From Candidatus Pacearchaeota archaeon (GTDB taxonomy: Archaea; Nanobdellota; Nanobdellia; UBA10117; JAFCGI01), in contig JAFCGI010000003.1 of NCBI GenBank assembly GCA_017608235.1, positions 44,146-108,145 of the forward strand: a DNA stretch of 64,000 nt. Direction: 5' to 3'. Made by a program: the position numbers and the translations under genes. Of this stretch, positions 4,180 through 62,530 are shown piece by piece. The first letter of the stretch is position 1, and the number at the start of each line of letters is the position of its first letter. The notes under the pieces are model-generated. The model had not been told where the DNA came from, ran no database searches, and saw only the letters and a program-made list of their open reading frames with translations.

Positions 4180-4252
4180 GGGGTCATAGCACAATCAGGC
4201 ACTGCGGCCGGCTCCAGACCGGCTGATCTGGGTTCAAATCCCAGTGACCCCA
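4180..4252 (+). tRNA. tRNA-Trp (anticodon CCA), no intron
   Basis: Manual cloverleaf. Acceptor GGGGTCA pairs with TGACCCC. U8. Anticodon stem GCCGG/CCGGC with loop CUCCAGA. T-arm CTGGG-TTCAAAT-CCCAG. Discriminator A. GC-rich island in AT-rich DNA. Confidence 0.8.
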
Positions 4253-4442
4253 CTCTTACTTTCTAGTTTATAATAATTAATAAAAAGGCAGAAATCCTTA
4301 TTTTTAAAAATTAACTCTTCCGCAATGTAAAATAAGTGTCAGCATTGATAAGGAAGGGCTACGCATAGCTATTTTGGAGTAACAAAAACCGAAAACTATT
4401 TATAGCTTTCATTACTAAAAAGTGTTATCCAACTAATGCTTT

Positions 4443-4448: not shown

Positions 4449-4455
4449 ATTAAAC

Positions 4456-5730: not shown

Positions 5731-5804
5731 TTGCTCTTTTTCTTTTTAATTTATTTTTTAATTATCTTATAATATAGTAATCAAAAATCAACAATAATTT
5801 GGAA

Positions 5805-8800: not shown

Positions 8801-9578
8801 CTTAGAGGATGAAGAAGCTAGAGAAAGGAAACAGAAAGAAGAACAAGAAGAAATTAAAAGAAAAATACAAAAAGATCTGGAAGAATCAAGAATAAAAAAA
8901 GAAGCTGCTAAAGAACCAGCTCAAGAAAACATAGAAGAATCAGAAAGCAAAGTAGAAGAAAACATAGAAGAATCAGAAAGCAAAGTAGAAGTAATTAAAG
9001 AATTAAAAGAAGTTAAAGAATTAGAAAAAACTAAGGAAATCCTTGAAGAAAAACCAAAAGAATTTGAATCAGAACCAAATATTATTGATAGTTCTGAAGA
9101 ACCAATTAAGGAAAAACCAAAACCTGAGGAAAAACAAGAACAAACACAAGAAGAAAAACAAGAACAAAAACAAGAACAAACACAAGAAGAAAAACAAGAA
9201 GAAAAACAAGAACCAATATCTGAGATTAAAGAAAAAAAGAAAAGTTTTTGGCAAAAGTTTAATGAGTTCTTAGAAGAGCCAGAAGATCAAGAACAAGCAT
9301 CCCAAGAACCAGAAAAACCAAAACCTGAAGAGAAAAAAGAACCAGAAAAACCAGAACAATTCAAAGAAGAAAAAGAAGACAGAATTATGACAAACATTCC
9401 TGAGGAAATCACTCAAGAACCAGAAAAACCAATAGAAGAGCAGAAACAAGAACCAGAAAAAACAGAATTAGCTAAGAAACCAAAAGAAAAGAAATCTTTT
9501 TGGAAAAAGTTCAATGATTTCCTAGAAGAATCTCCAGAACCTGAAGAGTCAAAGTATAAAGAGGAAAAGAAAGATTAA
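5805..9578 (+). CDS. Giant (1258-aa) surface protein with repeated about 110-aa Cys-pair modules, TM segments, an acidic E/P/K/Q low-complexity tract and a triplicated KKSFWxKFNDFLEE motif
   Basis: Signal peptide IVFFILTIFLAPFLSHTAYA. Six or more similar modules (…LSGSAAKWA…, …LSGSGAKWAS…, …LTGPAWSAL…, …VDGASWVKL…, …ISGNGASYVQL…). EPEEPEEPEEP-rich tract encoded by GAACCAGAA DNA repeats at 8030..8112. TM YFILAAIIILIGIILINLY. A C-terminal charged tail holds three copies of KEKKSFW(T/Q/K)KFN(D/E)FLEE. The track ORF starts at TTG 5799. Confidence 0.55.
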   Translation: MAAKKGHLSSIVFFILTIFLAPFLSHTAYAFEAVSDDISTYTCPSNTNIFIISVKNADVSDSYTVTLSGSAAKWAVAAPSGFVLGPQKSKDIYVYITPSSLALPGTYDLIITINAENSGTKQINHKIYVNDCHKISLTSVQSYIKTCACTLSSFDLNLANNGQYRELYDLSLSGSGAKWASLSQEVTMIDKGEDKDLKLYVAAPCDKKGKYDINVIAKSRDSNTFANKNLEFEIEPCYNYEAVPAVNFYEFCEHSQVKIPIDIKNTGVRNNTFKLSLTGPAWSALEKSSLDLLPDQQNQSKLILFPDYGVQGNYKLVVNIEDELTKNKKSLPIDIKVKKCHDIDLEIGTTEDILCPGSEEIYELSLENKGEFNDEYILSVDGASWVKLEKTLVSLDAGNTEKINLIANPSTIDIPADYNLDIFARSKHSPLIYDHVPLDITLKSNLNCFGVELSAQQNKIEVPYGEGSLIPITIQNKGQEEKEFLLDISGNGASYVQLNPSTIKIKPEKLETVHAYIAVPKEALLGEYKVTITARTKDNYLSSSDSIQIKVIEPQKSTQTDNTTQEKPSNSFLVSLISSFSKLGNKISGFFAGIFTSEPQIPDTEEPKETSSEKSEASEQEQKQETIELETQILEEQQSEEKEPEEQESEITEPEVQEQEPKITEELNNTEQEQEKVNESESIEPEVNKSELIEPEVNKSETYKSEANELESIEPKANNTEQQKINETKTEQPDTNKSKSQEPEEPEEPEEPQEPEEPEEPEEPEEPEEQKSEEKEPEPIIEVKEEFIELSEFTKSTYHIEGSTTKFIYNDQEHTATLDTVDETSIILIIESDPIYLDMDVGDTKQVDLDNDSINDLEVTLRGIKDGVADVSYKKLVPISDTEESQKSQESEKEPMNNNPAFLAITGMFANIGTSANNVYNTILSNNFIDEYKYFILAAIIILIGIILINLYSRKFTDYLEEEFDDQLESKEKPKKIKPKPKSKVPKEKKSFWTKFNDFLEDEEARERKQKEEQEEIKRKIQKDLEESRIKKEAAKEPAQENIEESESKVEENIEESESKVEVIKELKEVKELEKTKEILEEKPKEFESEPNIIDSSEEPIKEKPKPEEKQEQTQEEKQEQKQEQTQEEKQEEKQEPISEIKEKKKSFWQKFNEFLEEPEDQEQASQEPEKPKPEEKKEPEKPEQFKEEKEDRIMTNIPEEITQEPEKPIEEQKQEPEKTELAKKPKEKKSFWKKFNDFLEESPEPEESKYKEEKKD

Positions 9579-9623: not shown

Positions 9624-10544
9624 TTATAACTTAATTTCTAAAAAATCTTTAGCAGCAACTGTATTCTTAAAGAACTGTCTTGCTTCCCGTAACAGAGGTA
9701 AAAGATTTTTATATCTTTGACTGAAATGTGTTAAGATAAGCTTCTTAACTTTAGCTTTCTTAGCAATCTTAGCAGCTTGCTTAGCTGTTAGATGCTTTCT
9801 TTCTTTAGCCATATCTTTATGATCACTCATAAAAGTACTCTCACAAATAAACACATCAGAATCCATAGCTAATCTAACTAAATTATCACAAACACCAGTA
9901 TCAGCAGCATAACTTACCTTCTTGCCTGGCTTTTCTATTGTCGCCTTGCTAGCTTTAATCAATTTCCCTTTATATCTAATATCCTTGCCATCTTGCAATT
10001 TTTTAAGTATAGGATCCTGGCCTAAGCCAAACTTCTTAAGATAATCAAGATTTATTTTTCTCTTGCCTTTTTCTTGAAAAGCAAAACCAAGACAAGGTAT
10101 AAAATGATCTAATTTAGTAGCATACACCTCGTATTCATCTTTTTCACAAATCTTATCTACTGCTTTAGGAACTATTTCTTTTATTTTAATAGGAAATTGC
10201 ATGCATTTTTGATTAGATCCTTCGCATATACTGAATGATTTTAATAAATAACTAAAGAAAGTCTTAGTTCCTTTAGGACCATAGATCTCTAAAGGCCTAG
10301 TTCTTTTAGCCTGAGTTAAACTCTGAATCAATCCAGGCAATCCAAGTATATGATCTCCATGCCAATGACTTATAAAAATCTTAGAAACCTTCATAATACT
10401 CTCTCCAGAAATCGTAAATTGTCTTTGAGTTCCTTCACCACAATCAAACAATAATCCTTCACTGCCATATCTAATCAAGATTGCAGAATGATTTCTTTCT
10501 TTTGTTGGAAATACACTACTAGTCCCTAAAATCACAATTTTCAT
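9624..10544 (-). CDS. rnz: Ribonuclease Z (tRNA 3' endonuclease), metallo-beta-lactamase fold
   Basis: Motif ISHWHGDHILGLPGL (HxHxDH). Length 306 aa fits the short-form RNase Z. Conserved GDT..AAD and C-terminal HFS. Confidence 0.85.
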   Translation of the reverse strand: MKIVILGTSSVFPTKERNHSAILIRYGSEGLLFDCGEGTQRQFTISGESIMKVSKIFISHWHGDHILGLPGLIQSLTQAKRTRPLEIYGPKGTKTFFSYLLKSFSICEGSNQKCMQFPIKIKEIVPKAVDKICEKDEYEVYATKLDHFIPCLGFAFQEKGKRKINLDYLKKFGLGQDPILKKLQDGKDIRYKGKLIKASKATIEKPGKKVSYAADTGVCDNLVRLAMDSDVFICESTFMSDHKDMAKERKHLTAKQAAKIAKKAKVKKLILTHFSQRYKNLLPLLREARQFFKNTVAAKDFLEIKL

Positions 10545-11195: not shown

Positions 11196-11789
11196 ATGGT
11201 TAAGAAAAAAACTAAATTCAAGAAAAAAGTTTCAGAAACTAAAGAAACTAAAATTAAAGAAGAAAAACTTAAAGGTTTGCTAATAAGTAACAGAACTATT
11301 GTATCAGAAAACATAGAATTAGCTCAAGCTCTCTATGATAGAAGTAGCTTTGGAGAATTTCATGGAAGAGAAAAAAAACTAGAACTATCATTAGTTGAAT
11401 CTCTTTTCCTTTTAGAAAAGAAAAAACTAGATCTATATTTTAAAGGAAAAAAGTTAAACTTCAAAACTTTTTTAGCTAAAGCCACAAGACTAGAAAAGAA
11501 TTTCTGGAATAGATTTTCTGTATATAGAGATTTTAGAAATAGAGGATACATCCTTAAGACAGCACTAAAGTTCGGTGCAGACTTTCGTGTATATCCTAGA
11601 GGAGTTAAGCCTGGGCAGCAGCATGCTAAATGGATTTTATTCTGTGCCTCAGAGGGAGAAAAACTCACTTGGAGGCAATTCTCTGCTATGAATCGTGTAG
11701 CTCACTCTACAAGAAAGAAACTTTTAGTAGGAATCGTAGACGATGAAGGTGATGTTACTTATTATCTTATAGGATGGATCAAACCATAA
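11196..11789 (+). CDS. endA: tRNA-splicing endonuclease, catalytic-type subunit (short, alpha-type)
   Basis: C-terminal catalytic domain KFGADFRVYPRG…QQHAKWILFC matches the EndA Y…H…K catalytic region. Length 197 aa with an N-terminal Lys-rich extension. Confidence 0.65.
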   Translation: MVKKKTKFKKKVSETKETKIKEEKLKGLLISNRTIVSENIELAQALYDRSSFGEFHGREKKLELSLVESLFLLEKKKLDLYFKGKKLNFKTFLAKATRLEKNFWNRFSVYRDFRNRGYILKTALKFGADFRVYPRGVKPGQQHAKWILFCASEGEKLTWRQFSAMNRVAHSTRKKLLVGIVDDEGDVTYYLIGWIKP

Positions 11790-11936: not shown

Positions 11937-13433
11937 ATGGCAGATATCTCTAAAATCCACACAATCTCAGATTTAGCAGCATTTTGTAAGAGAAAAGGCT
12001 TTGTATTTCCTAGCGCAGAAATCTATGGAGGTTTTTCAGGATTCTTTGATTATGGGCCTCTAGGCATAGAACTTAAGGAAAACATCAAAAAAGATTGGTG
12101 GAAAACTTTTGTTCAATCTCGTCAGGATGTTATTGGAATCGATGGCTCAGCTATAACAAATCCTAAAGTTCTAGAAGCTTCAGGGCATGTAGCTGGATTT
12201 AATGATCTTTTAGTAGATTGTAAAAAATGTAAATTCAGAGAAAGAGCTGACCATCTTATAGAAGATCTTCTCAAAATACCTGCAGAACATCTTTCTGCAA
12301 AACAAATCCAAAAGCTTATAGAAAAACATAAAATAAAATGTCCTAAATGTAAAGGTCCTCTTTCAGAACCAAAACAATACAACACAATGTTCAAAACATA
12401 TGTAGGCCCAGTTGAACAAGATTCTTCAGTAGCATACCTACGTCCTGAAACAGCTCAATCTATTTTTTCTAATTTTGAACTCATACAAAAATCTTCAAGA
12501 GCTCAACTTCCATTTGGTATAGCCCAGATAGGAAAAGCCTTCCGCAATGAAATTTCTCCTAGAGATTTTCTATTTCGTATGAGAGAATTTGAGCAAATGG
12601 AACTTGAGTTTTTCACGCACCCAAAAAAAATCAATGATTGCCCTTTCTATAATGACATCCAGACTAGTTCTGTGAACATGCTTTCAGCAGAAATGCAAAA
12701 TAAAGGCAAAAATCATAAAGCAATGACTATAAAATCAGCAGTTATTAAGAAAATAATTAAGAATAGATGGCATGCATATTGGTTATATTCACAATATCAA
12801 TGGTTCCTAAACTTAGGAATCAACCCAAAAAATCTTAGAATTCGCGAACATAAAAAAGAAGAGCTTGCTCATTATGCTAAAGCTTGTTTTGATCTTGAAT
12901 ATAAATTCCCATTTGGCTGGAAAGAACTTCAAGGAATGGCTGATCGTGGTCAATTTGATTTAAGTCAACATGGAAAATATTCTGGAAAAGAAATAACATT
13001 TTTTGACCAAGCTAAACAGGAACATGTTGTCCCTTATGTAGCTGCAGAACCTTCGCAAGGTCTAGACCGTGCTTTTTTAGCATTTCTAATAGATGCATAT
13101 ACTGTTGAAAAGGATAGAGTAGTCTTGAAATTAAATCCAAAGTTAGCTCCAATCAAGATAGCTATTTTTCCATTAGTAAACAAAGACAAACTTCCAGAAG
13201 TTGCTATGAAAATCTATAATTTGCTAAAGGATAAATATCCTATTTTTTATGATACCTCTGGTTCTATTGGAAGAAGATATAGAAGAATGGATGAATCTGG
13301 AACTCCTTTTTGCTTAACCATAGATCATGACACATTAAAAGATAAAGCAGTAACAGTTCGCCATAGAGACTCTATGAAGCAGAAGAGAGTTAAAATAAAA
13401 GATCTAGAAACTTATTTTTTAAAATTAATATAA
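11937..13433 (+). CDS. glyS: Glycyl-tRNA synthetase (archaeal/eukaryal alpha2 type)
   Basis: Class II motif 2 FRNEISPRDFLFRMREFEQMELEFF. The GlyRS N-terminus (FVFPSAEIYGG, GPLG) and insertion domain are recognisable. Length 498 aa. Confidence 0.85.
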   Translation: MADISKIHTISDLAAFCKRKGFVFPSAEIYGGFSGFFDYGPLGIELKENIKKDWWKTFVQSRQDVIGIDGSAITNPKVLEASGHVAGFNDLLVDCKKCKFRERADHLIEDLLKIPAEHLSAKQIQKLIEKHKIKCPKCKGPLSEPKQYNTMFKTYVGPVEQDSSVAYLRPETAQSIFSNFELIQKSSRAQLPFGIAQIGKAFRNEISPRDFLFRMREFEQMELEFFTHPKKINDCPFYNDIQTSSVNMLSAEMQNKGKNHKAMTIKSAVIKKIIKNRWHAYWLYSQYQWFLNLGINPKNLRIREHKKEELAHYAKACFDLEYKFPFGWKELQGMADRGQFDLSQHGKYSGKEITFFDQAKQEHVVPYVAAEPSQGLDRAFLAFLIDAYTVEKDRVVLKLNPKLAPIKIAIFPLVNKDKLPEVAMKIYNLLKDKYPIFYDTSGSIGRRYRRMDESGTPFCLTIDHDTLKDKAVTVRHRDSMKQKRVKIKDLETYFLKLI

Positions 13434-13697
13434 GATCTTAAAATCCTTGAATTCTCCAGTATATTTTTCCCAGCTAATCTTAACATCTTTAACTTTAGCA
13501 GATCTAGGACCTTTCTTGCACCACTCAAGCATATTTATCACTTTTAATTTTGGTCCTTCAAACACAGCTTCTACATCCATTCCAGAATTCCTAACCCATC
13601 CCTGCAGTCCTAGCTTCTTAGCCTGTTTTTTAGTGTTAGCTCTAAAAAATACTCCTTGCACTACTCCTCTTACACTAATATGAGCCCTTGTCTTCAT
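13425..13697 (-). CDS. acyP: Acylphosphatase
   Basis: Signature VRGVVQGVFFR and GWVRNSGMDVEAVFEG. Length 90 aa. Confidence 0.8.
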   Translation of the reverse strand: MKTRAHISVRGVVQGVFFRANTKKQAKKLGLQGWVRNSGMDVEAVFEGPKLKVINMLEWCKKGPRSAKVKDVKISWEKYTGEFKDFKILY

Positions 13698-19432: not shown

Positions 19433-19441
19433 AATAGAAGT

Positions 19442-19575
19442 GGGACCAGTGGGAATTTCTCAACCACGGAATTTTCCGTCAATGCTTTTGTTCTTACAGT
19501 TACAAAAGGGTTGTTTTGAACCCACGACACCTAGATCTTCAGTCTAGTGCTCTCCCAGTCTGAGCTATGGTCCCC
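19442..19575 (-). tRNA. tRNA-Phe (GAA) with an about 60-nt intron at T-loop position 59/60
   Basis: Minus-strand cloverleaf. Acceptor GGGACCA pairs with TGGTCCC; disc A. D-arm GCTC-AGACTGGGA-GAGC. Anticodon stem CTAGA/TCTAG with loop CUGAAGA. T-stem GTGGG; TTCAAA [60-nt insert] T; CCCAC. The insert begins ACAACCC and ends GGTTGAGAAAT. Confidence 0.7.
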
Positions 19576-21083: not shown

Positions 21084-21439
21084 GGAAACTAGCTTAGCAG
21101 GCCTACGCTTCATCCCAAGCTATAGGATTTAATAGCGCCATACCAGACTAGGCGATCCCAGCATAATAAAGTGGAGCATGCTTTAGGATGGACATAAACA
21201 ACATTTACTGTGATCCTAATAATCAGCTCCACCCCGTATCTCCAAAGCACCCCAAAACCAAGTTACGGTTGCTCCATTCCTGGCCTGGCCGGATTAGCTT
21301 GAAAGAGAGGCCCTTGAAGGCGAGGCTTCGACGCCAACTAAAAGGGCAGCAAGCATTCTTTACGCCGCTCCCAAAGCTTCATCTTCCCCTAAAGCGCATT
21401 GAGGATTACAGGCCCGCGCTAATGGCCCAGACTAGCCCC
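21084..21439 (-). ncRNA. Signal recognition particle RNA (archaeal 7S/SRP RNA); ends approximate
   Basis: GC-rich island on the minus strand. 5' GGGGCUAGUCUGGGCC…GGGCCUGUAAUCC is an Alu-domain-like UGUAAU. Helix-8 region CAGGCCAGGAAUGGAGCAACCGUAAC…GGGGUGC matches the archaeal CAGGCCCGGAAGGGAGCAACGGUAG…GGGUGCC. A 3' GCUAGUUUCC can pair with the 5' GGGGCUAG. The overlapping 90-aa ORF (21188..21460) is rejected. Confidence 0.6.
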
Positions 21440-21485
21440 ATAAAAAACACTTTTTATTGATTTAAAAACCTTATCCTTATATAAT

Positions 21486-29146: not shown

Positions 29147-29220
29147 TCATATTAGCTTATTCTCTATAAGTATGTAATCATATTAGCTTATTCTCTATAA
29201 GTATGTAATCATATTAGCTT
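29128..29220. repeat. Tandem 31-bp direct repeat x3 (ATTCTCTATAAGTATGTAATCATATTAGCTT) containing the stop codons of both convergent genes
   Basis: Copy 1 carries the valS stop (TAA at 29144..29146). Copy 3 carries the pyrBI stop (reverse complement, 29209..29211). Confidence 0.85.
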
Positions 29221-30693
29221 AACTCTATTTTCACCAAATCTAATATTACAATAATGACAAATAAACATTGCAGGTTCTCTATTAATAACATAAATCATAG
29301 GCATAGCGCCCTCTTTATAAATTAAATTAGAAATACAACTACTATTAGGACAAGCTACTATATTATTAAGAATCTCTGGAAGTTTAACTTTACCTTTTCT
29401 AACAACATTAGAGTGTTCTATGAAACTAACAGTTGAATCTGGAGTAACCACTGCCAACATATTAAGCAAAGATTCAGAAATATTTCTATTAGATACTTTC
29501 AAGATTAATTTCTTCTCCCCATTAGTTCTTGTAACTCTTCCAAGACTAAAATTAATTTCAGGATCCTTTAGTCCTAATATAGAAGATACTTCTTTGAATT
29601 TATCTGGAGCAATATGATCTATAACTATACCATTTTCAATAGGTGCAATAATTCCTTTCTTAGCACTAGGTCTAGGCTTAACATTTTGAAATGAAGCAGT
29701 CTTATACTCTTGCTTTTTCTCAGTATATATTTCAGAGTCATTAAATATTAAATCTAACAAAGCTTCTCTTATATATATTCCATTCTGTGCTTGTTGAATA
29801 TAATAAGCATACTCAGTATTATCAACAGAATAATCTAACTCAATTGCATTCTTGTTTCTTGGCAAAGGATGTAATACTTTTAAATTAGGTTTAACATTCT
29901 TTAACAACTTAGCATGAAGACTAAATAAATTTTTTACTCTATCATAGTCTTCCTTACCTTCCATAGTATCTGGGAATCTCTCTTGCTGTATTCTAGTCAT
30001 ATATAAAATATCAACTTTTTCAGCAACTTCTTGCAAATCATTAGAAATCTCATAATCATGTCCTCTATTCTTTATCAAATCTAAATAATATAAAGGCATT
30101 TTAAGGACATCTGGAGAAACAAAATAAAATTTGTTACTACTAAACATCGTAAGTGCACTAACTAAAGAATGTGTAGTCCTTCCATATTTCAAGTCTCCAA
30201 CAACCCCAATTTTTAATCCATCTAATTTTCCCTGAGTTTCTTTAATGCTTAACAAATCAAGCATAGTCTGAGTAGGATGCTGATTTTTACCATCACCAGC
30301 ATTTATAATAGGAATCTTTAGAGAATCAGCAGCAAATCTAGCAGCACCATCTAAATTATGTCTTATAATTATAGCTTGAGCATCATAATTTTCAAACATT
30401 CTCAATGAATCAACTAATGGCTCGCCCTTAACCACAGAAGTGTTTGATGGATTCCCAAAACCAATAGCTTCTGCACCAAGATTTTTGATTGCTGCATCAA
30501 AGCTTTTCTCAGTTCTTGTACTAGGTTCAAAGAAAAGTGATGCAATTCTTTTTCCTTTAAGAAGGTCACTAATTTTATTAGCATTCCCTTGCTTATGCAA
30601 ATTCTTAAACTCCTCAGCCCGCTTTAGAACTATATCAAAATCTCTAGCAGAGAAATCATTCACAGAAATTACGCTTCTTCCTTTAAATCCCAT
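29209..30693 (-). CDS. pyrB: Aspartate carbamoyltransferase, fused catalytic (PyrB) and regulatory (PyrI) chain
   Basis: N-terminal 310 aa: FEPSTRTEKSF (STRT), HPTQTMLDL (HPTQ), HPLP. C-terminal 150 aa: PyrI-like with Zn-site cysteines ACPNSSCISN and CHYCNIRF. A single 494-aa ORF with no internal stop. Confidence 0.85.
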   Translation of the reverse strand: MGFKGRSVISVNDFSARDFDIVLKRAEEFKNLHKQGNANKISDLLKGKRIASLFFEPSTRTEKSFDAAIKNLGAEAIGFGNPSNTSVVKGEPLVDSLRMFENYDAQAIIIRHNLDGAARFAADSLKIPIINAGDGKNQHPTQTMLDLLSIKETQGKLDGLKIGVVGDLKYGRTTHSLVSALTMFSSNKFYFVSPDVLKMPLYYLDLIKNRGHDYEISNDLQEVAEKVDILYMTRIQQERFPDTMEGKEDYDRVKNLFSLHAKLLKNVKPNLKVLHPLPRNKNAIELDYSVDNTEYAYYIQQAQNGIYIREALLDLIFNDSEIYTEKKQEYKTASFQNVKPRPSAKKGIIAPIENGIVIDHIAPDKFKEVSSILGLKDPEINFSLGRVTRTNGEKKLILKVSNRNISESLLNMLAVVTPDSTVSFIEHSNVVRKGKVKLPEILNNIVACPNSSCISNLIYKEGAMPMIYVINREPAMFICHYCNIRFGENRVKLI

Positions 30694-38055: not shown

Positions 38056-38214
38056 CTTAGGACTATAACGTTAGTAATATAAAAGTTAAACGCTTAGAGA
38101 ACCAAAAAGAAATGATTTCTTTAAGTAATTTATAGTCTTAGTAGACAATATAGTCATAAGGTCATGAGTTCTTTTAATAGATTATTATTTAATACATTAT
38201 ATATTTGTTAGATA

Positions 38215-38333
38215 TGGGCCTACTGGGAATTTCTCAGCTATAGGGGTTTCTACTAATGGTTTCCCGAAAAACTGTATCGAACCCAGGTCTTTTGGTCCGC
38301 AACCAAACATTCTATCCACTAGACTATAGGCCC
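38215..38333 (-). tRNA. tRNA-Arg (GCG) with an about 47-nt intron at T-loop 59/60
   Basis: Acceptor GGGCCTA pairs with TAGGCCC; disc A. Anticodon stem TTTGG/CCAAA with loop UUGCGGA. T-stem CTGGG; TTCGAT [insert ACAG…GCTGAGAAAT] T; CCCAG. The D-stem is weak (GTCT/GAAT has one mismatch and two G-U). Confidence 0.6.
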
Positions 38334-38452
38334 ATAGAAAAGTGTTTTAGAGAGATTAAAAAACTTATGTTTAGCTATTTTTGTATACTATAATGTTGAA
38401 AGACATATGCTGTATTAAGATTATAGTAAAAATATTACAATAAAAAATATAA

Positions 38453-38607
38453 TAGCCCCGACCGGACATTCTCAACCGCGGATTTCTTCCGCCAATGCTT
38501 CTTTCTAAGAAGGGTTGTTTCGAACCAGTGTCCTAAGGTCCAGAACCTCAGATGCTTGACTTATAGATCTAATAATTTTTTTATTAAATTCACTACACTA
38601 CGGGGCT
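38453..38607 (-). tRNA. tRNA-Gln (CUG) with a 52-nt T-loop 59/60 intron and an additional about 30-nt AT-rich insertion in the D-loop
   Basis: Acceptor AGCCCCG pairs with CGGGGCT; disc A. D-stem GTGT/GCAT. Anticodon stem TGAGG/CCTTA with loop UUCUGGA. T-stem ACTGG; TTCGAA [ACAACCC…GGTTGAGAATG] T; CCGGT. The D-region insert forms the hairpin TTAATAA-AAAAA-TTATTAG. Confidence 0.5.
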
Positions 38608-38754
38608 ATGTCTAAAATAATAATAAGCTAGTTTTTAAAGTATTCGAATGTTATGGACTTTTAAATTATGATAGTGCTTCTATACCTTTTTTAGTAACTC
38701 TCTAGCAGTAGTATAAATCATAAAATTTATAAGGTGAAGCACAAAGGCATAATT

Positions 38755-47777: not shown

Positions 47778-48760
47778 TCTTCTTCAGTAGCTTTTTCGCA
47801 CAGCGAGTCCAGCGCATAATAAATAGCTTCTTCTTCAAAATCTTCTCCAATCATTGAGTCTAAAAATTTATCATAGAAATCTGTGTGAATACTGCTTAGA
47901 TCTAATGTATCTGAAAGTACAAAATCTCTTGCCCTATTTAAGATAAGCTTGTTAAGTTCCATTAATTCATTTATTCTGTAATATGAGAAGCTGCAAAATT
48001 CAGTAATTATTTTAGTTTCTAGATTTCTATTATACTTTGCATCTTCACTATCTTTGCTACATAATTTGGCATCAGCTTCATAAAAAGAGATTAATACTTC
48101 TGCTTCGTCTAGCTTTTGATAAATCCTTTTAATAACTTTTTTTCTATAACTAATAACTTTTTTTTGCAGATTTATAAATTTATTATGTAATCTCTTAGTC
48201 CTTTCTTCACTTTCTAGCATATTTGTTGGTATAATTCTATTCCATTTTAAACTAGATTTTAAGAATTTTCTAATATATTTAAAATTAATATCTTCTTTTT
48301 TAAGTTCTGGCTTATTTATATTTAAGGTAAAGAAAGCATCTTTGTATTCATTAAGCAATATATTATCTTTTGTATCATACTTTAATTCCTTAAGGAATGA
48401 TTCTGTTAGATAACTTAATTCCTCTTTTAAATTATTAGTCCATATAGGAGCATTATTATCATAATTAAATACATATCCATCAACCCATGTTCCTACTGGG
48501 TGCGATATGTTAGCACCCCTTTTTGCATTATCTGAGATTTTGCTATTTAGTTTAATTATATTTTCAAAACACTTATCTAGCTGCTTATAATATTCACTTC
48601 TAATTTCTTTATGTTTTTCTGCAAAAGAATTAAATTTTGTTCTTGCTTTTTTTGCTTTTTTTTTTCTTTTATTATATTTTTTACTCTCCATATTTAATCT
48701 TTTTCTAGTTTTAGCTAATTGACTCATAATATCACCTTTGGAGATCTTTAGATATATCAT
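47774..48760 (-). CDS. Hypothetical coiled-coil protein (operon member)
   Basis: 328 aa. Lys-rich N-terminus. No known motif. Confidence 0.4.
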   Translation of the reverse strand: MIYLKISKGDIMSQLAKTRKRLNMESKKYNKRKKKAKKARTKFNSFAEKHKEIRSEYYKQLDKCFENIIKLNSKISDNAKRGANISHPVGTWVDGYVFNYDNNAPIWTNNLKEELSYLTESFLKELKYDTKDNILLNEYKDAFFTLNINKPELKKEDINFKYIRKFLKSSLKWNRIIPTNMLESEERTKRLHNKFINLQKKVISYRKKVIKRIYQKLDEAEVLISFYEADAKLCSKDSEDAKYNRNLETKIITEFCSFSYYRINELMELNKLILNRARDFVLSDTLDLSSIHTDFYDKFLDSMIGEDFEEEAIYYALDSLCEKATEEE

Positions 48761-50744
48761 ACATTTCAGACTGTAGCCTGTCTAAAGTTACATTATATCT
48801 TCTTAGAGTAGAAACATATTTTGTGATTCCCATGCTAATTTGTAGATTGTCTTTTGCAGCATATAATATGCTATTTACTTTCCGAATCTCTTTTATTTCG
48901 CATGTTATTGCCTGAACTATAGATTTAAGATTTGAAATTAAATCTTCATGCAATTTTTCTTTGGCAGAACTATATGATTCATATTCTTCTTTTTTTTGTT
49001 TGGTCTCATAATATATATATTTGGAAAATTTTTTTCTATGTTGTTTTATTTTTTTAAGTTCTTGTTTTATAATTTTAGATATAGTTTTTTTTCTCTTTCT
49101 CAGAATTTGTTTCTTATTAAATCTAATGCCTAACTTAGATAATTCATTCCAAATCTCAGGCTCATTCTTTCCATGAATTAAATAATTTTGGATATGTTTT
49201 ACTTTTTCTTTTTTATTTTTAGTTAAGTATATGAGTTCCAAAAATGTTTCTGCTTTTGTATTAAATGTGTTAAAATTATTTGGCTTTATTTCTTTAGAAA
49301 GTATTGTTAATGCTGAATATGCGTTTATATTATATGCTTCAGCTTTAATCTTATCCTCTACTACTTCTGCAAGAGTTATCTGTGCATGAGCTAAGGATAG
49401 TACTATATCATTATAGTCTGATTGTGCTTTTTCTTTTGGGAAAGGGCTTTCTTCTGCTTCAACCTTCTGTTTAGTATTTTCCTGCGCATTCAATAGACCC
49501 TTCATTCCACGTTCAAGAAGATCTAAAAGTTTTGTTTTTTCGACTTTACTTAAATTTTGAGAATAGTTTCTTAGAAATCCAGATAGTTCTGAAATATAAA
49601 ATGCTGCTATACTAGTAATTTCTAATTTTGAGTTAGAAATAACTAATAAGTCATCTGCTAATTCTATAAGAGTAGTTCTGAAATATTCTTTTACTTTTTC
49701 ATAATTATGATGCTTATTTTCATTTATTTCTGACAATTTAAAGTTAATAGCGCTTCTTAAGGTATTTACATAATTAACTACTCTCTCAAGAATTTCTTGA
49801 TCAATTTTAAGATCTTTTCCAAAATTAAATAAGTGCGTTTTTGGAATTTTCTCTGGTATTGTTCCTCTTTTTATACTTAGCGCCTCTTGGAATAAGTCTG
49901 CATGCGAATGAAATTCCTCAGGGCGGAATAAATACCTAGTGCATTCTTTTTCTAGCTCTATAAGATTTTTCTTAGGTATTACTATATCTGTAGATGCTAT
50001 GTAATATGAATGAGCCATTCTGCAAATAGCTTTAGATAATTCTGCTACTGCTTCTTCTCTTTTTTCATCATCATCTTTATTTTTTAGGATGTCTGCTAAG
50101 CTTGAAAGAGTATATCTTGTATATATCAAAAATAATTCGAATGCCTCATATCTTGGGATATTTATTTTTGGCAGATCTTCAAATTCTTCAAATACATCAT
50201 AGCCCATTAAAATTTTATGGCAATTCCAAATATAAGAGAAAAGGAATTTACTAGCTAAACCTCGCCAATTATTAATTTGTTTTTTAGATCTACCGATTGC
50301 TCCACTTTTAAATGCATCTATATTTTTAGGATTTATGCTATTCTTATCTCTTACCCATATTTGCGCCTTAACTTTACATCCGAGGTCTGCATTTATCTTT
50401 TCAAGATCTTCATTCAGCTTATCTTCTAAAGTGTTAATTTCTGTTTCTATGTCTTTAATTTTGTTAAATTCAATTGATCCATAATGTTCCTTATATAGTT
50501 CAGGATTATCTTTGTATTCCTCTAAGGCATTATATACATTTGGATTAACTAAGAAATCTATATCAAAATCAGAATATTTATTCATGTCCCCTGAATAAAT
50601 GCTACCAGAACTAAATGCGCTATGGCAATAAAAGCAAGAAGCATCATCATCTTCTATTGAAAATTTAGAGTCCATAAAGTAATTGCAAAATTTGTCTTCT
50701 AGAAAGCTTGGAATATCTTGAATAGTTTGGATAGGTTTTGACAT
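48732..50744 (-). CDS. Large protein with an N-terminal Pol-beta-superfamily nucleotidyltransferase signature and a long helical C-terminal region
   Basis: SAFSSGSIYSGDMNKYSDFDIDFLV fits hG[GS]x9-13DhDh (GS + 10 aa + DFDID). Preceded by a CFYCHS Cys/His cluster. A candidate third acidic residue lies in IWVRDKN. Length 670 aa. First gene of the operon. Confidence 0.55.
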   Translation of the reverse strand: MSKPIQTIQDIPSFLEDKFCNYFMDSKFSIEDDDASCFYCHSAFSSGSIYSGDMNKYSDFDIDFLVNPNVYNALEEYKDNPELYKEHYGSIEFNKIKDIETEINTLEDKLNEDLEKINADLGCKVKAQIWVRDKNSINPKNIDAFKSGAIGRSKKQINNWRGLASKFLFSYIWNCHKILMGYDVFEEFEDLPKINIPRYEAFELFLIYTRYTLSSLADILKNKDDDEKREEAVAELSKAICRMAHSYYIASTDIVIPKKNLIELEKECTRYLFRPEEFHSHADLFQEALSIKRGTIPEKIPKTHLFNFGKDLKIDQEILERVVNYVNTLRSAINFKLSEINENKHHNYEKVKEYFRTTLIELADDLLVISNSKLEITSIAAFYISELSGFLRNYSQNLSKVEKTKLLDLLERGMKGLLNAQENTKQKVEAEESPFPKEKAQSDYNDIVLSLAHAQITLAEVVEDKIKAEAYNINAYSALTILSKEIKPNNFNTFNTKAETFLELIYLTKNKKEKVKHIQNYLIHGKNEPEIWNELSKLGIRFNKKQILRKRKKTISKIIKQELKKIKQHRKKFSKYIYYETKQKKEEYESYSSAKEKLHEDLISNLKSIVQAITCEIKEIRKVNSILYAAKDNLQISMGITKYVSTLRRYNVTLDRLQSEMYDISKDLQR

Positions 50745-55441: not shown

Positions 55442-55570
55442 ATAGATGTAAAAATGACTTAAGAATAAAAGGTTTTCCACAGGAAACATTGGAAATTAAG
55501 GCGTTTGGAATACAAATATTTTAAATATAGGAAAGTCTTCAAGATTTTTAATGGCTTTGGAGATGCGCTC

Positions 55571-57598
55571 ATGCTAGATTATGAAGATATGATTACAAAG
55601 TTTAGAACTTTCTTTGAGAGATATTATTATAATTCTCTTCTGACTAATATTAAGAAAGGCAAGAAATATATTAATATTAAATTTGGAGATTTAGCTAAGT
55701 TCGACTTAGACTTATCTGAGGAGTTGATTTCTAAGCCTCAGGAGATTTTAGATTTAGCTGAGAAGTCTCTAAAAGAGTTTGATATTCCTGAAGCTGAGCA
55801 TCCTATTAGAGTTAGAGTTATTGATTTGCCTCAAGCCTATTATCTTTCTATTCGAAATATTCGAAGTAGTCATTTGGGAAAGTTAATTTGGACTGAGGGT
55901 TTGATAAGACAGGCATCTGATATCAGACCTAAAGTTACGATTGCTACATTTGAGTGTCCTAGCTGTAATGCACAGATTGTTGTAGAACAAAGAGATACAA
56001 GTTTCAAGGAACCTGCAAGATGTCAGTGTGGCAGGAAAGGTAAATTTAGACTATCTAGCAAGAAGATGGTTGATGTTCAGAGATTAGTTATAGAAGAAGT
56101 CCCTGAGAGTTTAAGCGGAGGGGAGCAGCCAAAAAGAATCAGAGCATATCTTTCAGAAGATCTTTTGGATGCAGATCTAGAGAAGAGAAGATATCCTGGA
56201 AATAAAGTTAGGATTGCTGGTGTGATTAAAGAGGTTCCAGTATCTACAAGAACTGGAGGTAGAAGTACAACCTATGATTTAATGATTGATGCGAATTCTG
56301 CAGAAACTGTTGAAGAAGAGTTTGGAGAACTTCAGATATCTGCTAAAGATGAAGAGTTAATTAAGGATCTAGCTTCAAAGTCAAATATTTTTGAAAAGTT
56401 AGCTAGGAGCATTGCTCCAAGTATTTATGGGTTGAATGAGATTAAGCAGGCGATTGTTTTGCAGTTGTTTGGAGGTACAAGAAAAACTAGAGAGGATGGT
56501 ACAAGTACAAGAGGAGATATTCATATATTCTTGGTTGGAGATCCTGGAGCAGGCAAGTCTCAGATTTTAAGTTATGTTTCTAATCTAGCACCAAAAGCAA
56601 GAATGGTAACTGGAAGAGGCGCTAGCGCAGCTGGAATCACAGCAAGTGTTGTTAAGGATGAATTTATGGGCGGCTGGGCTTTAGAAGCTGGCGCACTTGT
56701 TTTAGCGAATAATGGAATAGCATTGCTAGACGAACTAGATAAAATCTCAAGAGAGGATACTTCAGCAATGCATGAAGCTATGGAGCAACAGCGTGTTACT
56801 ATTAGCAAAGCAAATATTCAAGCAACTCTAAGAGCACAAACTTCTATTCTTGCGGCTGCAAATCCAAAGTTTGGAAGGTTTGATCCTTATAGTCCTATAG
56901 CTTCACAAATAGATCTTCCTCCCACGCTGATTAACAGGTTTGATCTTATCTTTACTGTGAGAGATATTCCAAACATAGAAAAAGATGAATTAATAGCTAG
57001 GCATGTTTTGGAGTTACATAGAGATGATGATGCTAAAAAAGCAGATATTAGTCCTGAGGTAATTAGGAAATATATTGCATATGCAAAGCAGCATTGCAAG
57101 CCAGTGTTAAGTTCTGGTGCTCTAGATGAGATTAGAGAGTTTTATGTTAATTTAAGAAGTACAGCTGCCTTGGAAGATTCTGAAGTAAAATCAATTCCAA
57201 TTTCTGCAAGACAGCTTGAAGCTCTAATCAGGCTGTCGGAAGCAAGCGCTAGAATCAGGCTTTCTGATAAAGTAACCAAAAGGGATGCACAGAGAGCAAT
57301 TGGATTGCTAAGAAGCTGTATGGAAGCAGTAGCACTAGATGTGGAAACTGGTAAGTTTGATATAGATAGAATTGCTACAGGAATCACAGCTACTGATAGA
57401 AGTAGGATTACGATAGTTAGAAGAATTATTGATGAGTTAGAAGGTAGAGTTGGAAAAAACATTCCAATTTCAGATATTCTAAATGAAGCAGAGAATGAAG
57501 GACTAGAAAAAGCTAAGGCAGAGGATGTTATTGAAAACTTAAAGAAAAAAGGAGACATCTTTGAACCTAAGCCTGGATTGATTCAGAAGATTGGTTAG
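55571..57598 (+). CDS. mcm: MCM replicative helicase
   Basis: Zn finger CPSCN…CQCG. Walker A IHIFLVGDPGAGKSQ. Walker B and arginine finger region ALLDELDK…SILAAANP. Winged-helix C-terminus. ATG at 55571; the track ORF starts at TTG 55505. Confidence 0.9.
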   Translation: MLDYEDMITKFRTFFERYYYNSLLTNIKKGKKYINIKFGDLAKFDLDLSEELISKPQEILDLAEKSLKEFDIPEAEHPIRVRVIDLPQAYYLSIRNIRSSHLGKLIWTEGLIRQASDIRPKVTIATFECPSCNAQIVVEQRDTSFKEPARCQCGRKGKFRLSSKKMVDVQRLVIEEVPESLSGGEQPKRIRAYLSEDLLDADLEKRRYPGNKVRIAGVIKEVPVSTRTGGRSTTYDLMIDANSAETVEEEFGELQISAKDEELIKDLASKSNIFEKLARSIAPSIYGLNEIKQAIVLQLFGGTRKTREDGTSTRGDIHIFLVGDPGAGKSQILSYVSNLAPKARMVTGRGASAAGITASVVKDEFMGGWALEAGALVLANNGIALLDELDKISREDTSAMHEAMEQQRVTISKANIQATLRAQTSILAAANPKFGRFDPYSPIASQIDLPPTLINRFDLIFTVRDIPNIEKDELIARHVLELHRDDDAKKADISPEVIRKYIAYAKQHCKPVLSSGALDEIREFYVNLRSTAALEDSEVKSIPISARQLEALIRLSEASARIRLSDKVTKRDAQRAIGLLRSCMEAVALDVETGKFDIDRIATGITATDRSRITIVRRIIDELEGRVGKNIPISDILNEAENEGLEKAKAEDVIENLKKKGDIFEPKPGLIQKIG

Positions 57599-57723
57599 AG
57601 CCTTTCTTTGGCAAGAAACACTCACAAAAGAAGCTAAAAAAGATTTATGCAATAAGTAAGTTGATTTTGAGATACTATTAGATTGAATAAAACTTTATAT
57701 ATTAGCTATAATTTTGATTTAAA

Positions 57724-61290: not shown

Positions 61291-61385
61291 TTTACGTAAC
61301 ACTTCTATAAAAAGATTACGTTAACGTAACTTTTTACCTTTTTTACGTAACAGAATAGCCAAAATGTAACCTTTTCGTTACTTTT
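61291..61385. repeat. Cluster of TTACGTAAC / GTTAACGTAAC palindromic motifs in the recombinase promoter region
   Basis: TTTACGTAAC (61291), GATTACGTTAACGTAAC (61315) and TTTTACGTAAC (61342). Inverted half-sites GTAACC…CGTTAC at 61365..61381. Confidence 0.75.
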
Positions 61386-61984
61386 ATCCTTTTAGTTAGC
61401 AGATCTAGCAAAATATCTATAAATCAAAAGGAATTAAAGAAATAATTAAAAGATTTAATCAAAAACTAAAATATGTAAGATAGATATACAATCAAAACTT
61501 TTAATCAAAGATTAAAATATTTTATCTTAAAAATTTTGAATCTAACTCTTTAAACATAGTTTGTTTTTGGTCTTCAGTATTATTATGATGTATAATATAT
61601 GAAAAATCATAATCCCAAACTATTTTTCCCTTTTTATAATTTTAGGATTTTCATAATCAAAAGGACTATAATATTTTCCATAAAACTCATCTCTAATCAT
61701 ATCTGAAGATAGTCTTAGAAAGTCATAATTAGAAATAATTTATTTCAAGAATTATTAGGAAAGAAATATTGATTAGAACATTAAAACACATATAGATATT
61801 TCTTTTATTGTAATAAAGAAATTTTAAAAAAAGAAAAATAAATATTATTTACCAATCTATACTTATAAAGTTTTCAAATATAAAAATTTTACAAATTTAT
61901 AATATAAAAATTCAAAAACATAAAAATAAGGAAATTAAGATTTCAAAATATATTTATACCATAGTCTTCTAATAGTAAAAAGTA

Positions 61985-62233
61985 ATGGCTAAAAAGAAGA
62001 CCTCAAATAAAAAAACCTGTGTTGTTTGTGGGGATTGTGATTATAATTTAATGAAGCAGCTAACCAAACTTAACCAACTACTTTGGAATATTGATGGATA
62101 TATCTCAGATGCAAAGAAAGCAAAACATAAAGAATGCCAGAAAGTGCTTGAAAGGCTTAGAGATGACACACAGAAAAACGCTGAAAGACTTAAGCAAATT
62201 TTAATAAAGAAGTGTTGTGAAGGCAAATTATAA
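61985..62233 (+). CDS. Small Cys-rich hypothetical protein (possible zinc ribbon)
   Basis: CVVCGDC…CC motif. Length 82 aa. Followed by a 10-bp perfect inverted repeat hairpin at 62353..62388. Confidence 0.3.
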   Translation: MAKKKTSNKKTCVVCGDCDYNLMKQLTKLNQLLWNIDGYISDAKKAKHKECQKVLERLRDDTQKNAERLKQILIKKCCEGKL

Positions 62234-62530
62234 GAATCCTATATTAATAGTGCAGAACTAACGCATATTCAGAATTATCTTTGAGTTTTTCTAATTAATT
62301 TACTTTAGTTTTCTAATTAATTTATTCTAGCTATCTGTTTTTATACAAAATAAGCTGTGTTGTTTTTCATGAATCATGCAACACAGCTGTTAAAACAAAA
62401 TAGAAAGTATTATAGAGGCATAATTACCACTATTGCTGCTTAAAAATTTAAATTTACGCAAATAAATCAGATAGAGTTGAAATTATGCCAAATAATATAT
62501 CAATTACAACAAGAAAAGAATTAACAGACT

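What the first reader, a model, noticed from the sequence alone, without database searches (positions are those of the whole stretch)
38215..38607. tRNA-Arg(GCG)/tRNA-Gln(CUG) pair carrying homologous 59/60 introns related to the tRNA-Phe intron 19 kb away
All three intron-containing tRNAs share the architecture T-stem; TTC(G/A)A(A/T) | intron | T; T-stem. The Gln and Phe introns are alignable over most of their length (ACAACCCTT…AAGCATTG(A/G)CGGAA(A/G)A(A/T)TCCG(T/C)GGTTGAGAA(A/T)(T/G)). The Arg intron keeps the terminal …CTGAGAAAT. A shared intron in three different isoacceptors implies intron spread by transposition-like duplication, or strong co-evolution with the splicing endonuclease. 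The tRNA-Trp in the same window has no intron.
Basis: seen in the sequence. Interest (0 to 1): 0.75.

Follow-up and report, generated by a model that had tools for sequence, protein, structure and literature searches.

The report
Related T-loop introns in archaeal tRNA genes
Three of the four tRNA genes in this small-archaeon (DPANN) genome fragment are split by short protein-spliced introns at the same spot in the T-loop, and two of those introns are copies of one intron family also found in another DPANN genome, which extends a known kind of intron spread to a new lineage.

Summary
On the minus strand lie tRNA-Arg(GCG) 38215-38333, tRNA-Gln(CUG) 38453-38607 and tRNA-Phe(GAA) 19441-19574. Each has an intron between T-loop positions 59 and 60 (47, 52 and 60 nt). 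Removing the introns in silico gives canonical tRNAs. Each junction folds into a near-standard bulge-helix-bulge (BHB) motif. The splicing endonuclease EndA is encoded in the same window (11196-11789).

The Gln and Phe introns are truly homologous (88% identity over aligned positions, z about 9 against shuffles), while their exons differ. The Arg intron shares only the junction module (ACA...TGAGAAAT). Its core is not detectably related.

The Gln/Phe intron type recurs in a Nanoarchaeota MAG (L012). There at least ten related introns sit in D-, anticodon- and T-loops of four tRNA genes. A relative (L044) has an intronless tRNA-Phe whose T-arm equals the predicted spliced product.

This matches the "tRNA intron transposition" described for Thermoproteales, here in DPANN. 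I class it as a new member of a known kind, of moderate interest.

The parts
38215..38333 (-). tRNA-Arg(GCG) gene, 119 nt including one intron
   Evidence: Sequence read. ARAGORN calls Arg(gcg), 72 nt, after in-silico splicing. Rfam tRNA partial match of 26.4 bits.
38229..38275 (-). 47-nt BHB intron at T-loop position 59/60 of tRNA-Arg. The junction module is shared with Gln and Phe; the core is not detectably related.
   Evidence: Top BHB candidate in the pre-tRNA: outer helix 5 bp, central helix 3 of 4 bp, inner helix 5 bp. Pair counts. No core similarity.
38453..38607 (-). tRNA-Gln(CUG) gene, 155 nt including two introns
   Evidence: ARAGORN calls Gln(ctg), 73 nt, only after both inserts are removed.
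38467..38518 (-). 52-nt BHB intron at 59/60 of tRNA-Gln, a paralogue of the Phe intron. It has an inner helix CAACC/GGTTG plus two hairpins.
38561..38590 (-). 30-nt AT-rich intron in the D-loop of tRNA-Gln (AGTG|AATTT...TATAA|GTCAA, between the two conserved D-loop G's). It is a relaxed HBh' type and unrelated in sequence to the T-loop introns.
   Evidence: BHB scan: central helix 4 of 4 bp, inner helix 9 bp, no outer helix. Local fold. Its removal is required for a tRNA call. No similarity to the other introns.
19441..19574 (-). tRNA-Phe(GAA) gene, 134 nt including one intron
   Evidence: Rfam tRNA 30.4 bits for the 5' part. The unconstrained minimum-energy fold is a cloverleaf with the T-arm extended by the intron.
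19455..19514 (-). 60-nt BHB intron at 59/60 of tRNA-Phe, a paralogue of the Gln T-loop intron
   Evidence: The spliced T-arm equals that of the intronless tRNA-Phe in L044.
11196..11789 (+). tRNA-splicing endonuclease EndA (197 aa, alpha-type with N- and C-terminal domains). It is the enzyme expected to cut all four introns.
   Evidence: Pfam PF01974 (6.7e-30) and PF02778. Best solved relatives are the N. equitans alpha subunit 3IEY_A and M. jannaschii 1A79. Catalytic Tyr, His and Lys columns are invariant in the alignment.
4180..4253 (+). tRNA-Trp(CCA), intronless. It is the only uninterrupted tRNA gene in the window and serves as a comparison.
   Evidence: No further hidden tRNA was found by a scan for GC-rich islands in intergenic DNA.

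Best explanation
The window comes from an AT-rich DPANN archaeon of Nanoarchaeota/Woesearchaeota type. tRNA-Arg(GCG), tRNA-Gln(CUG) and tRNA-Phe(GAA) are functional genes, each interrupted between T-loop nucleotides 59 and 60 by a short protein-spliced (BHB) intron. tRNA-Gln has an extra intron in its D-loop.

In the precursor the T-stem serves as the outer helix. T54-T55-C56 pair with the GAA of the intron's 3' ...AGAA. R57 faces an A. A58-N59|A and (A/T)(T/G)|T60 are the two 3-nt bulges. Intron nucleotides 2-6 pair with the 5 nt before AGAA to form the inner helix. This copies the geometry of a canonical 37/38 intron in the anticodon arm.

The EndA encoded at 11196-11789 is inferred to cut in both bulges. 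A ligase encoded outside the window (RtcB-type, not seen here) would join the exons and restore the 7-nt T-loop.

The Gln and Phe introns are paralogous copies of one intron family. Its members have the inner helix CAACC/GGTTG, a pyrimidine/purine hairpin, the motif AAGC-R-TTG-R-CGG and a second hairpin. The family also populates D-, anticodon- and T-loop sites of tRNA genes in another Nanoarchaeota genome.

It most likely spread by intron-specific duplication or transposition between tRNA genes, as proposed for Thermoproteales. The T-loop is an easy target because TTC is invariant, so the same 3' adaptor fits any tRNA.

The Arg intron uses the same junction module, but its core is unrelated or diverged beyond recognition.

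Shown here: gene structures, BHB geometry, homology, the presence of EndA, and an intronless orthologue. Inferred: actual splicing, and the transposition mechanism and its direction.
For: - In-silico splicing gives canonical tRNAs.
- The 59/60 site is the top BHB candidate in each precursor.
- On seven such T-loop introns, 90.8% of cells pair. Three of the 5 inner-helix pairs and 3 of the 5 T-stem pairs show compensatory changes. Slid controls give 21-54% pairing.
- The unconstrained fold of pre-tRNA-Phe gives a cloverleaf plus an intron extension of the T-arm, z = -2.85.
- EndA with an intact catalytic triad is encoded in the window.
- Gln/Phe core homology: z 9.1, 0 of 5000 shuffles; 88% versus 73% identity for intron versus exons. 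There are compensatory changes in hairpin 2 (G-C to A-U) and hairpin 1.
- The core motif occurs only in these two introns in the window, against 0.03 expected.
- Cross-genome family members: L012 tRNAs Asn, Ile, Glu and Leu carry related introns at D, anticodon and T positions. win_Phe versus L012_Asn_T gives z 9.5, and win_Gln versus L012_Leu_T gives z 7.8.
- The intronless tRNA-Phe in relative L044 has a T-arm identical to the predicted spliced product.
- The junction signature found true tRNA hits only in DPANN genomes among 185,579 species genomes.
- Literature: intron families shared among isoacceptors in Thermoproteales (Fujishima 2010, as summarised in PMC4033280 and PMC4090602); 59/60 introns cleaved in vitro in ARMAN-2 (PMC3239211); increased tRNA disruption in Pace- and Woesearchaeota (PMC5829648).
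Against: - There is no RNA evidence, so splicing is inferred.
- The central helix has only 3 Watson-Crick pairs plus an R.A apposition in all seven cases.
- The D-loop intron lacks an outer helix. The EndA lacks both published 'broad-specificity' insertions, so cleavage of the relaxed sites is not guaranteed by what is known.
- The Arg intron is not a detectable family member.
- Family members other than L012_Leu_T at 59/60 were retrieved with a pattern that fixed the junction, so junction conservation across genomes is partly circular.
- The evolutionary distance between the window organism and L012 is unknown: no shared genes were found. Vertical inheritance therefore cannot be separated from transfer.
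- The poly-pyrimidine/poly-purine hairpins are low-complexity sequence and inflate similarity among some family members.
Confidence: 0.75

Rival explanations
1. Convergence rather than common descent. All 59/60 introns must pair with the invariant T-loop and satisfy one endonuclease, so similar sequences arise independently in each tRNA.
For: GAA of the 3' AGAA is forced by pairing with T54-T55-C56. The Arg intron shares only this junction module and has no core similarity. This reading is therefore adequate for Arg.
Against: It cannot explain a 31-nt internal block in Gln and Phe (AAGCATTGRCGGAA..TCCGYGGTTG) that takes no part in the BHB. It also cannot explain the same core at D-loop and anticodon-loop sites in L012, where the adaptors differ. 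The junction signature is absent from 59/60 introns of other archaeal lineages in the genome scan, so it is not a universal structural requirement.
Confidence: 0.1
2. The inserts are not spliced. The three loci would be tRNA genes inactivated by insertion of a small repeat element, and functional copies would lie elsewhere in the genome.
For: No expression data exist. ARAGORN and Rfam do not call the genes as they stand. A weak family-like element lies in intergenic DNA at 57601-57633 (E 0.38).
Against: The inserts sit at one exact position and form BHB motifs with compensatory changes. Exons are otherwise perfect cloverleaves with intact anticodons. DPANN genomes are small and usually carry single tRNA copies (general knowledge). 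EndA is present. The same architecture recurs in four adjacent tRNA genes upstream of the 16S rRNA gene in L012.
Confidence: 0.04
3. The conserved intron core is itself a functional RNA module, for example a protein-binding site or a stable circular RNA after excision. Purifying selection, not recent copying, would then explain why Phe(window) resembles Asn(L012) as closely as it resembles Gln(window). This can coexist with the best explanation.
For: Cross-genome similarity is as high as within-genome similarity (z 9.5 versus 9.0), despite different GC content (0.31 versus 0.39). Compensatory changes maintain both hairpins. A related element lies in the 16S leader of L012 (E 0.005).
Against: There is no match to any Rfam family and there are no C/D or H/ACA boxes. 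The Arg and D-loop introns lack the core yet presumably splice. The relatedness of the two genomes is unknown, so conservation may simply reflect a short divergence time or transfer.
Confidence: 0.15

Closest known systems
Non-canonical BHB tRNA introns at position 59/60, e.g. ARMAN-2 pre-tRNA-Cys(GCA) and pre-tRNA-Pro(GGG) (PMC3239211), and Thermoproteales tRNAs
   Same: Same insertion site in the T-loop. Exon-intron junctions fold into a bulge-helix-bulge motif cut by the archaeal splicing endonuclease. The host is an ultrasmall DPANN archaeon.
   Different: Here the introns are 47-60 nt with a near-strict hBHBh' motif; the ARMAN-2 Cys intron is 13 nt and of hBH type. Three of the four tRNAs in the window use this one site. 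The endonuclease here is a single alpha-type protein, not the epsilon2 three-unit enzyme.
[quoted passage not shown] 2010, Mol Biol Evol 27:2233; read only through the summaries in PMC4033280 and PMC4090602)
   Same: [quoted passage not shown] This implies intron-specific gain.
   Different: The lineage is different (DPANN, not Crenarchaeota) and so is the sequence family. The organism's EndA has no Crenarchaea-specific loop. Only one 64-kb window plus a few loci were examined, so the scale is unknown.
Canonical archaeal 37/38 tRNA introns
   Same: Identical geometry: a 5-bp stem, loop nucleotides 1-4 pairing with the intron 3' end, 3-nt bulges and an inner intron helix. Position 59/60 in the T-arm is the structural counterpart of 37/38 in the anticodon arm (my derivation).
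   Different: The location differs. The adaptor pairs with invariant TTC instead of anticodon-loop bases, so it needs no tRNA-specific adaptation.
DPANN alpha4-type EndA associated with increased tRNA gene disruption (Kaneta et al. 2018, PMC5829648)
   Same: Single alpha-type EndA in a Woese-/Pacearchaeota-like genome that carries multi-intron and non-canonical-intron tRNAs.
   Different: That paper links the trait to an 'L3' insertion. The window EndA and its 15 closest homologues show no insertion relative to M. jannaschii at the N. equitans Lys-rich site or at the CSL site. They carry a variable Lys-rich N-terminal tail instead.

Membership tests
Archaeal BHB (endonuclease-spliced) tRNA introns | The insert interrupts an otherwise canonical tRNA gene, and its removal restores a cloverleaf with an anticodon | tested here: met
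   ARAGORN calls Arg(gcg), Phe(gaa) and Gln(ctg) only after removal. The spliced Phe T-arm equals that of the intronless orthologue in L044.
Archaeal BHB (endonuclease-spliced) tRNA introns | Two 3-nt bulges separated by a 4-bp helix and flanked by helices (hBHBh') at the splice sites | tested here: met
   T-loop introns have a 5-bp outer helix, 3 Watson-Crick pairs plus one R.A in the central helix, a 5-bp inner helix and 3-nt bulges. This is slightly relaxed. The D-loop intron of Gln is HBh' (4-bp central helix, 9-bp inner helix, no outer helix).
Archaeal BHB (endonuclease-spliced) tRNA introns | The genome encodes a splicing endonuclease with the catalytic Tyr-His-Lys triad | tested here: met
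   EndA at 11196-11789: PF01974 and PF02778, PDB relatives, invariant Y133, H143 and K174.
Archaeal BHB (endonuclease-spliced) tRNA introns | Cleavage at the bulges and exon ligation observed at the RNA level | not testable with these tools
   No transcript data. No RtcB ligase gene in the window.
Transposed or duplicated tRNA intron families (Thermoproteales type, Fujishima 2010) | Significantly similar intron sequences in tRNAs of different isoacceptor identity | tested here: met
   Gln versus Phe: z 9.1, 0 of 5000 shuffles. Also against the L012 Asn, Leu and Ile introns. Not met for the Arg intron.
Transposed or duplicated tRNA intron families (Thermoproteales type, Fujishima 2010) | Similarity is confined to the intron, and the tRNA bodies are not specially related | tested here: met
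   Intron identity is 88% of aligned positions, against 73% for the mature tRNAs with many gaps. The T-stems are GTGGG/CCCAC versus ACTGG/CCGGT.
Transposed or duplicated tRNA intron families (Thermoproteales type, Fujishima 2010) | The same family occurs at different positions, and presence or absence differs between related genomes | tested here: met
   L012 carries family members in D-, anticodon- and T-loops. L044 has an intronless tRNA-Phe. Only a few genomes were sampled.
Transposed or duplicated tRNA intron families (Thermoproteales type, Fujishima 2010) | A demonstrated mechanism or direction of transfer | not testable with these tools
   The mechanism is unknown even for Thermoproteales (PMC4090602).
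Intron-encoded C/D box sRNA (archaeal tRNA-Trp intron type) | C (RUGAUGA) and D (CUGA) boxes with guide regions; a match to snoRNA or sRNA models | tested here: not met
   No Rfam match in 38100-38700 or in the whole window at E<=5, other than tRNA and SRP. No C box by inspection. Only the Arg intron has a CUGA, which is part of the junction.
Self-splicing group I / group II introns | A catalytic core of hundreds of nucleotides; Rfam Intron_gpI or group-II models | tested here: not met
   The inserts are 30-60 nt. No Rfam hit.

The most novel reading that the evidence does not exclude
The Gln/Phe-type element would be a currently or recently mobile, position-promiscuous BHB intron family specific to DPANN Nanoarchaeota. 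It would have a conserved functional core (AAGC-R-TTG-R-CGG plus hairpins) and exchangeable junction adaptors, and would spread between tRNA genes and possibly rRNA leaders and genomes. The invariant T-loop would act as a universal landing pad. It would be serviced by an alpha-type EndA that achieves broad specificity without any of the known specificity loops.
Probability: 0.2. Interest if true: 0.7.

Novelty: new member of a known kind. Interest (0 to 1): 0.4.

Why it matters
Standard tRNA finders miss these genes: ARAGORN and Rfam called only one of the four tRNAs in the window cleanly. DPANN genomes therefore look tRNA-poor, and completeness or 'missing tRNA' claims can be wrong.

The data extend the idea that archaeal tRNA introns multiply as sequence families from Thermoproteales to DPANN. 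They offer a compact test system with three substrates and their endonuclease in one 64-kb fragment. The enzyme has none of the insertions currently thought necessary for cutting non-canonical or relaxed sites.

If the cross-genome conservation of the intron core reflects function or mobility, how BHB introns are gained would become experimentally tractable.

Tried and rejected
1. Exact-protein look-ups for the window's own contig failed, so the rest of the genome could not be read.
2. Synteny-based retrieval of orthologous Arg/Gln loci through IleRS relatives failed. Gene order is not conserved in L044, L045 or L046. L044 did yield an intronless tRNA-Phe.
3. The metagenome scan with the junction pattern gave 26 loci. 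Only L028 and L039 (the latter the same as L011) are tRNAs; the rest are chance matches in coding DNA. The genome scan gave 17 loci, of which 3 are true.
4. Viral-contig scans with the junction pattern and with the core motif gave only coding-region chance matches, so there is no link to viruses.
5. RNAalifold on the MAFFT alignment of 13 family introns predicted no consensus structure, because low-complexity arms were misaligned. I used a sequence-only model instead.
6. C/D-box or other known RNA families inside the introns: none found.
7. Hidden extra tRNAs in the window: the GC-island scan found none. The one candidate (13425-13697) is an acylphosphatase-like ORF.
8. tblastx between the window and L011, L012, L016 and L028 to estimate relatedness found no useful shared genes.
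9. Exact boundaries of some L012 anticodon-loop introns could not be fixed with my simple BHB scorer, because low-complexity sequence gives many near-equal solutions. Those elements are therefore quoted from inner helix to inner helix.

Full report
**What is in the sequence**

The window is 30.6% G+C. It carries archaeal markers: an archaeal SRP RNA at 21170-21442, TBP, aIF2-beta, RFC subunits and IleRS. The IleRS is identical to a database protein on a 117,730-nt contig. Its next relatives are only 59% identical, and where they are named they are Nanoarchaeota, Woesearchaeota or Nanoarchaeia archaea. The source is therefore a DPANN archaeon without close sequenced relatives.

ARAGORN finds only tRNA-Trp (4180-4253). 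Rfam at gathering threshold adds a partial tRNA hit at 19505-19568.

Reading the minus strand shows three more tRNA genes:
- tRNA-Arg(GCG), 38215-38333
- tRNA-Gln(CUG), 38453-38607
- tRNA-Phe(GAA), 19441-19574

Each has the layout T-stem, TTCRA-N | insert | T, T-stem. That places the insert between nucleotides 59 and 60. The inserts are:
- Arg: 47 nt, 38229-38275
- Gln: 52 nt, 38467-38518
- Phe: 60 nt, 19455-19514

After removing them, ARAGORN calls Arg(gcg) and Phe(gaa). Gln is called only after a second, 30-nt AT-rich insert in the D-loop is also removed (38561-38590; AGTG|AATTT...TATAA|GTCAA).

A scan for GC-rich islands in intergenic DNA found no further hidden tRNA. So three of the four tRNA genes in the window carry a 59/60 intron.

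**Are they BHB introns?**

I wrote a scorer for the archaeal motif: outer helix, 4-bp helix, two 3-nt bulges cut after the second bulge nucleotide, and inner helix. It ranks the 59/60 site first in each precursor. The geometry is:
- The T-stem is the 5-bp outer helix.
- T54, T55 and C56 pair with the GAA of the intron's ...AGAA.
- R57 faces an A.
- The bulges are A58-N59|A and (A/T)(T/G)|T60.
- Intron nucleotides 2-6 pair with the five nucleotides before AGAA (CAACC/GGTTG in Gln and Phe, CAGUU/AGCUG in Arg).

This is the same geometry as a canonical 37/38 intron, moved from the anticodon arm to the T-arm.

I aligned seven such T-loop introns, three from the window and four from other DPANN loci. 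On that alignment:
- 90.8% of cells pair, against 21-54% when partners are slid.
- Three of the five inner-helix pairs show compensatory changes.
- The R57.A apposition is never a standard pair.

The unconstrained fold of the whole pre-tRNA-Phe is a cloverleaf whose T-arm is extended by the intron, which forms a Y of two hairpins (z = -2.85). Local folds of the Gln and Arg T-arm plus intron show the same outline.

The D-loop intron of Gln has a perfect 4-bp central helix and a 9-bp inner helix but no outer helix. That makes it a relaxed HBh' type.

**The enzyme**

The window encodes the splicing endonuclease EndA at 11196-11789. It is 197 aa and has both Pfam endonuclease domains.

Its closest solved relatives are the N. 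equitans catalytic subunit (3IEY_A) and the M. jannaschii homotetramer subunit (1A79).

In an alignment with 15 DPANN homologues, the catalytic Tyr, His and Lys columns are invariant. There is no insertion at the Crenarchaea-specific-loop site; compare 2CV8. There is also no insertion at the Lys-rich site of N. equitans (KKGKRSE). The DPANN proteins instead share a Lys-rich N-terminal tail of variable length.

Published work ties cleavage of relaxed or non-canonical sites to such insertions (PMC5829648, PMC3239211). The near-strict T-loop motifs fit a plain alpha-type enzyme. The HBh' D-loop site is the one that is not explained.

No RtcB ligase gene lies in the window.

**Homology of the introns**

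The Gln and Phe introns align over their full length, and their similarity is not a by-product of the junction:
- With the junction-constrained ends removed, the alignment score is 9.1 SD above shuffles (0 of 5000). It is 6.5 SD when the inner helix is also removed.
- Identity is 88% of aligned positions, against 73% for the mature tRNAs, and the T-stems differ. The similarity therefore belongs to the intron and not to a duplicated gene segment.
- Both hairpins are kept by compensatory changes, for example G-C to A-U in GRCGGA...UCCGYG.
- The core motif AAGCRTKSRCG occurs in the window only in these two introns, against 0.03 expected.

The Arg intron is different:
- After removal of ACA and TGAGAAAT it is no more similar to Gln or Phe than shuffled sequence (z 0.2-1.5).
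- A profile built from 13 family members does not hit it at E<=10.
- Its best z against any family member is 2.8.
- It shares the junction module, only part of which (GAA) is dictated by pairing with the T-loop.
- The remaining shared junction bases (A1, the C-G and A-U pairs, the A opposite R57, and the AU bulge) point to one of two things: a common enzyme preference, or a family member with a replaced or decayed core. I cannot tell which.

**Relatives elsewhere**

I scanned one genome for each of 185,579 species with the junction pattern GGTTCRAWACA-N(25-55)-TGAGAAWKTCC. This gave 17 loci. The only true tRNA hits were three DPANN MAGs: L011 (Woesearchaeota), L012 (Nanoarchaeota AUK188) and L016 (labelled Parvarchaeota). 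The junction signature is therefore lineage-specific and not a general property of 59/60 introns.

The metagenome scan added only L028.

L012 is the informative locus. In 4.6 kb upstream of its 16S rRNA gene it has four tRNA genes (Asn, Ile, Glu, Leu by my reading). Together they carry at least ten inserts in D-, anticodon- and T-loops. All have the same build: CA(C/A)C, a pyrimidine run, a purine run, AAGC-(G)-T(T)G-(C/A)-AC(G), an A-rich stretch, a purine run and G(G/U)UG.

The T-loop intron of the L012 tRNA-Leu was not selected by my pattern, yet it has the same two-hairpin architecture as the window's Gln and Phe introns. That includes the ACGGAAAGAAAUCCGU hairpin. Pairwise scores against shuffles:
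- window Phe versus L012 Asn T-loop: z = 9.5
- window Phe versus window Gln: z = 9.0
- window Gln versus L012 Leu T-loop: z = 7.8

So the family crosses genomes and insertion positions. The 3' adaptor next to the bulge differs by position, as each local loop requires. That last point is my inference.

Conversely, L044 is a relative whose IleRS is 58% identical to the window's, and it shares the SRP-RNA/RFC adjacency. It has an intronless tRNA-Phe(GAA) whose T-arm GUGGGUUCAAAUCCCAC is exactly the predicted spliced product of the window gene. The intron is therefore present in one lineage and absent in the other.

**Comparison with what is known**
- 59/60 introns are known. ARMAN-2 pre-tRNA-Cys and pre-tRNA-Pro have them, and the Cys intron is cleaved in vitro (PMC3239211).
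- Families of similar introns in different isoacceptors, at canonical and non-canonical sites, are the basis of the 'large-scale intron transposition' proposal for Thermoproteales (Fujishima 2010, as summarised in PMC4033280 and PMC4090602). Its mechanism is still unknown.
- Increased tRNA disruption in Pace- and Woesearchaeota has been noted (PMC5829648).
- Full-text searches found no description of this intron family, or of intron families in these DPANN lineages. That search covers open-access papers only.

**Verdict**

This is a new member, in a new lineage, of a known kind of system. Three points go beyond routine:
- the concentration of introns at one site (three of four genes);
- the cross-genome, cross-position conservation of the intron core;
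- an EndA without the known specificity insertions.

Actual splicing, the mechanism of spread, and whether the core is functional are all inferred, not shown.

Noticed in passing
window 11196-11789 (+): The EndA splicing endonuclease has a 23-aa Lys-rich N-terminal extension. DPANN homologues share such a tail at variable length (0 to about 60 aa). It has no insertion at the Crenarchaea-specific-loop site or at the N. equitans Lys-rich loop site, although the genome carries non-canonical and one relaxed (HBh') intron.
   Followed up: partly
window 57601-57633 (+): An intergenic element lies directly after the stop codon of ORF 55505-57598: AGCCTTTCTTTGGCAAGAAACACTCACAAAAGAAGCT. It weakly matches the intron-family model (E 0.38) and resembles the L012 anticodon-loop introns. 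It could be a solo copy, a terminator hairpin or chance.
   Followed up: no
L012 1-6325 (Nanoarchaeota archaeon AUK188, JAGGYW010000002.1): Four tRNA genes (about 241-464 Asn, 993-1175 Ile, 2400-2580 Glu, 4276-4548 Leu) carry at least ten mutually related introns upstream of the 16S rRNA gene. ARAGORN calls none of them. The family model also hits the 16S leader at 5444-5480 (E 0.005).
   Followed up: partly
L011 7792-7975 and 2630-2870; L028 about 960-1125: Further multi-intron tRNA genes in DPANN loci, by my reading: Thr(CGU) with D- and anticodon-loop introns; Arg(CCU) with three introns; and a Val-like tRNA with a canonical and a 59/60 intron. All are invisible to ARAGORN.
   Followed up: partly
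window 9624-10544 (-): A metallo-beta-lactamase protein with a tRNase Z N-terminal domain match, the likely tRNA 3'-end processing enzyme. It lies about 650 bp upstream of EndA on the opposite strand, with a CDP-archaeol synthase gene between them.
   Followed up: no
window 29209-30693 (-): A single 494-aa ORF combines the aspartate carbamoyltransferase catalytic domains (PyrB) with both regulatory-chain domains (PyrI). It appears to be a PyrB-PyrI fusion.
   Followed up: no
window 21170-21442 (-) and L044 4834-5106 (-): The archaeal SRP RNA lies directly downstream of the RFC large-subunit gene in both the window and the 58%-IleRS relative L044. This is one of the few conserved adjacencies between them.
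   Followed up: no
window 61303-62530: A 1.2-kb stretch with no ORF of 100 aa or more and 23% G+C. It was not examined. Also, the large ORFs 5799-9578 (1259 aa) and 48732-50744 (670 aa) have no Pfam match.
   Followed up: no
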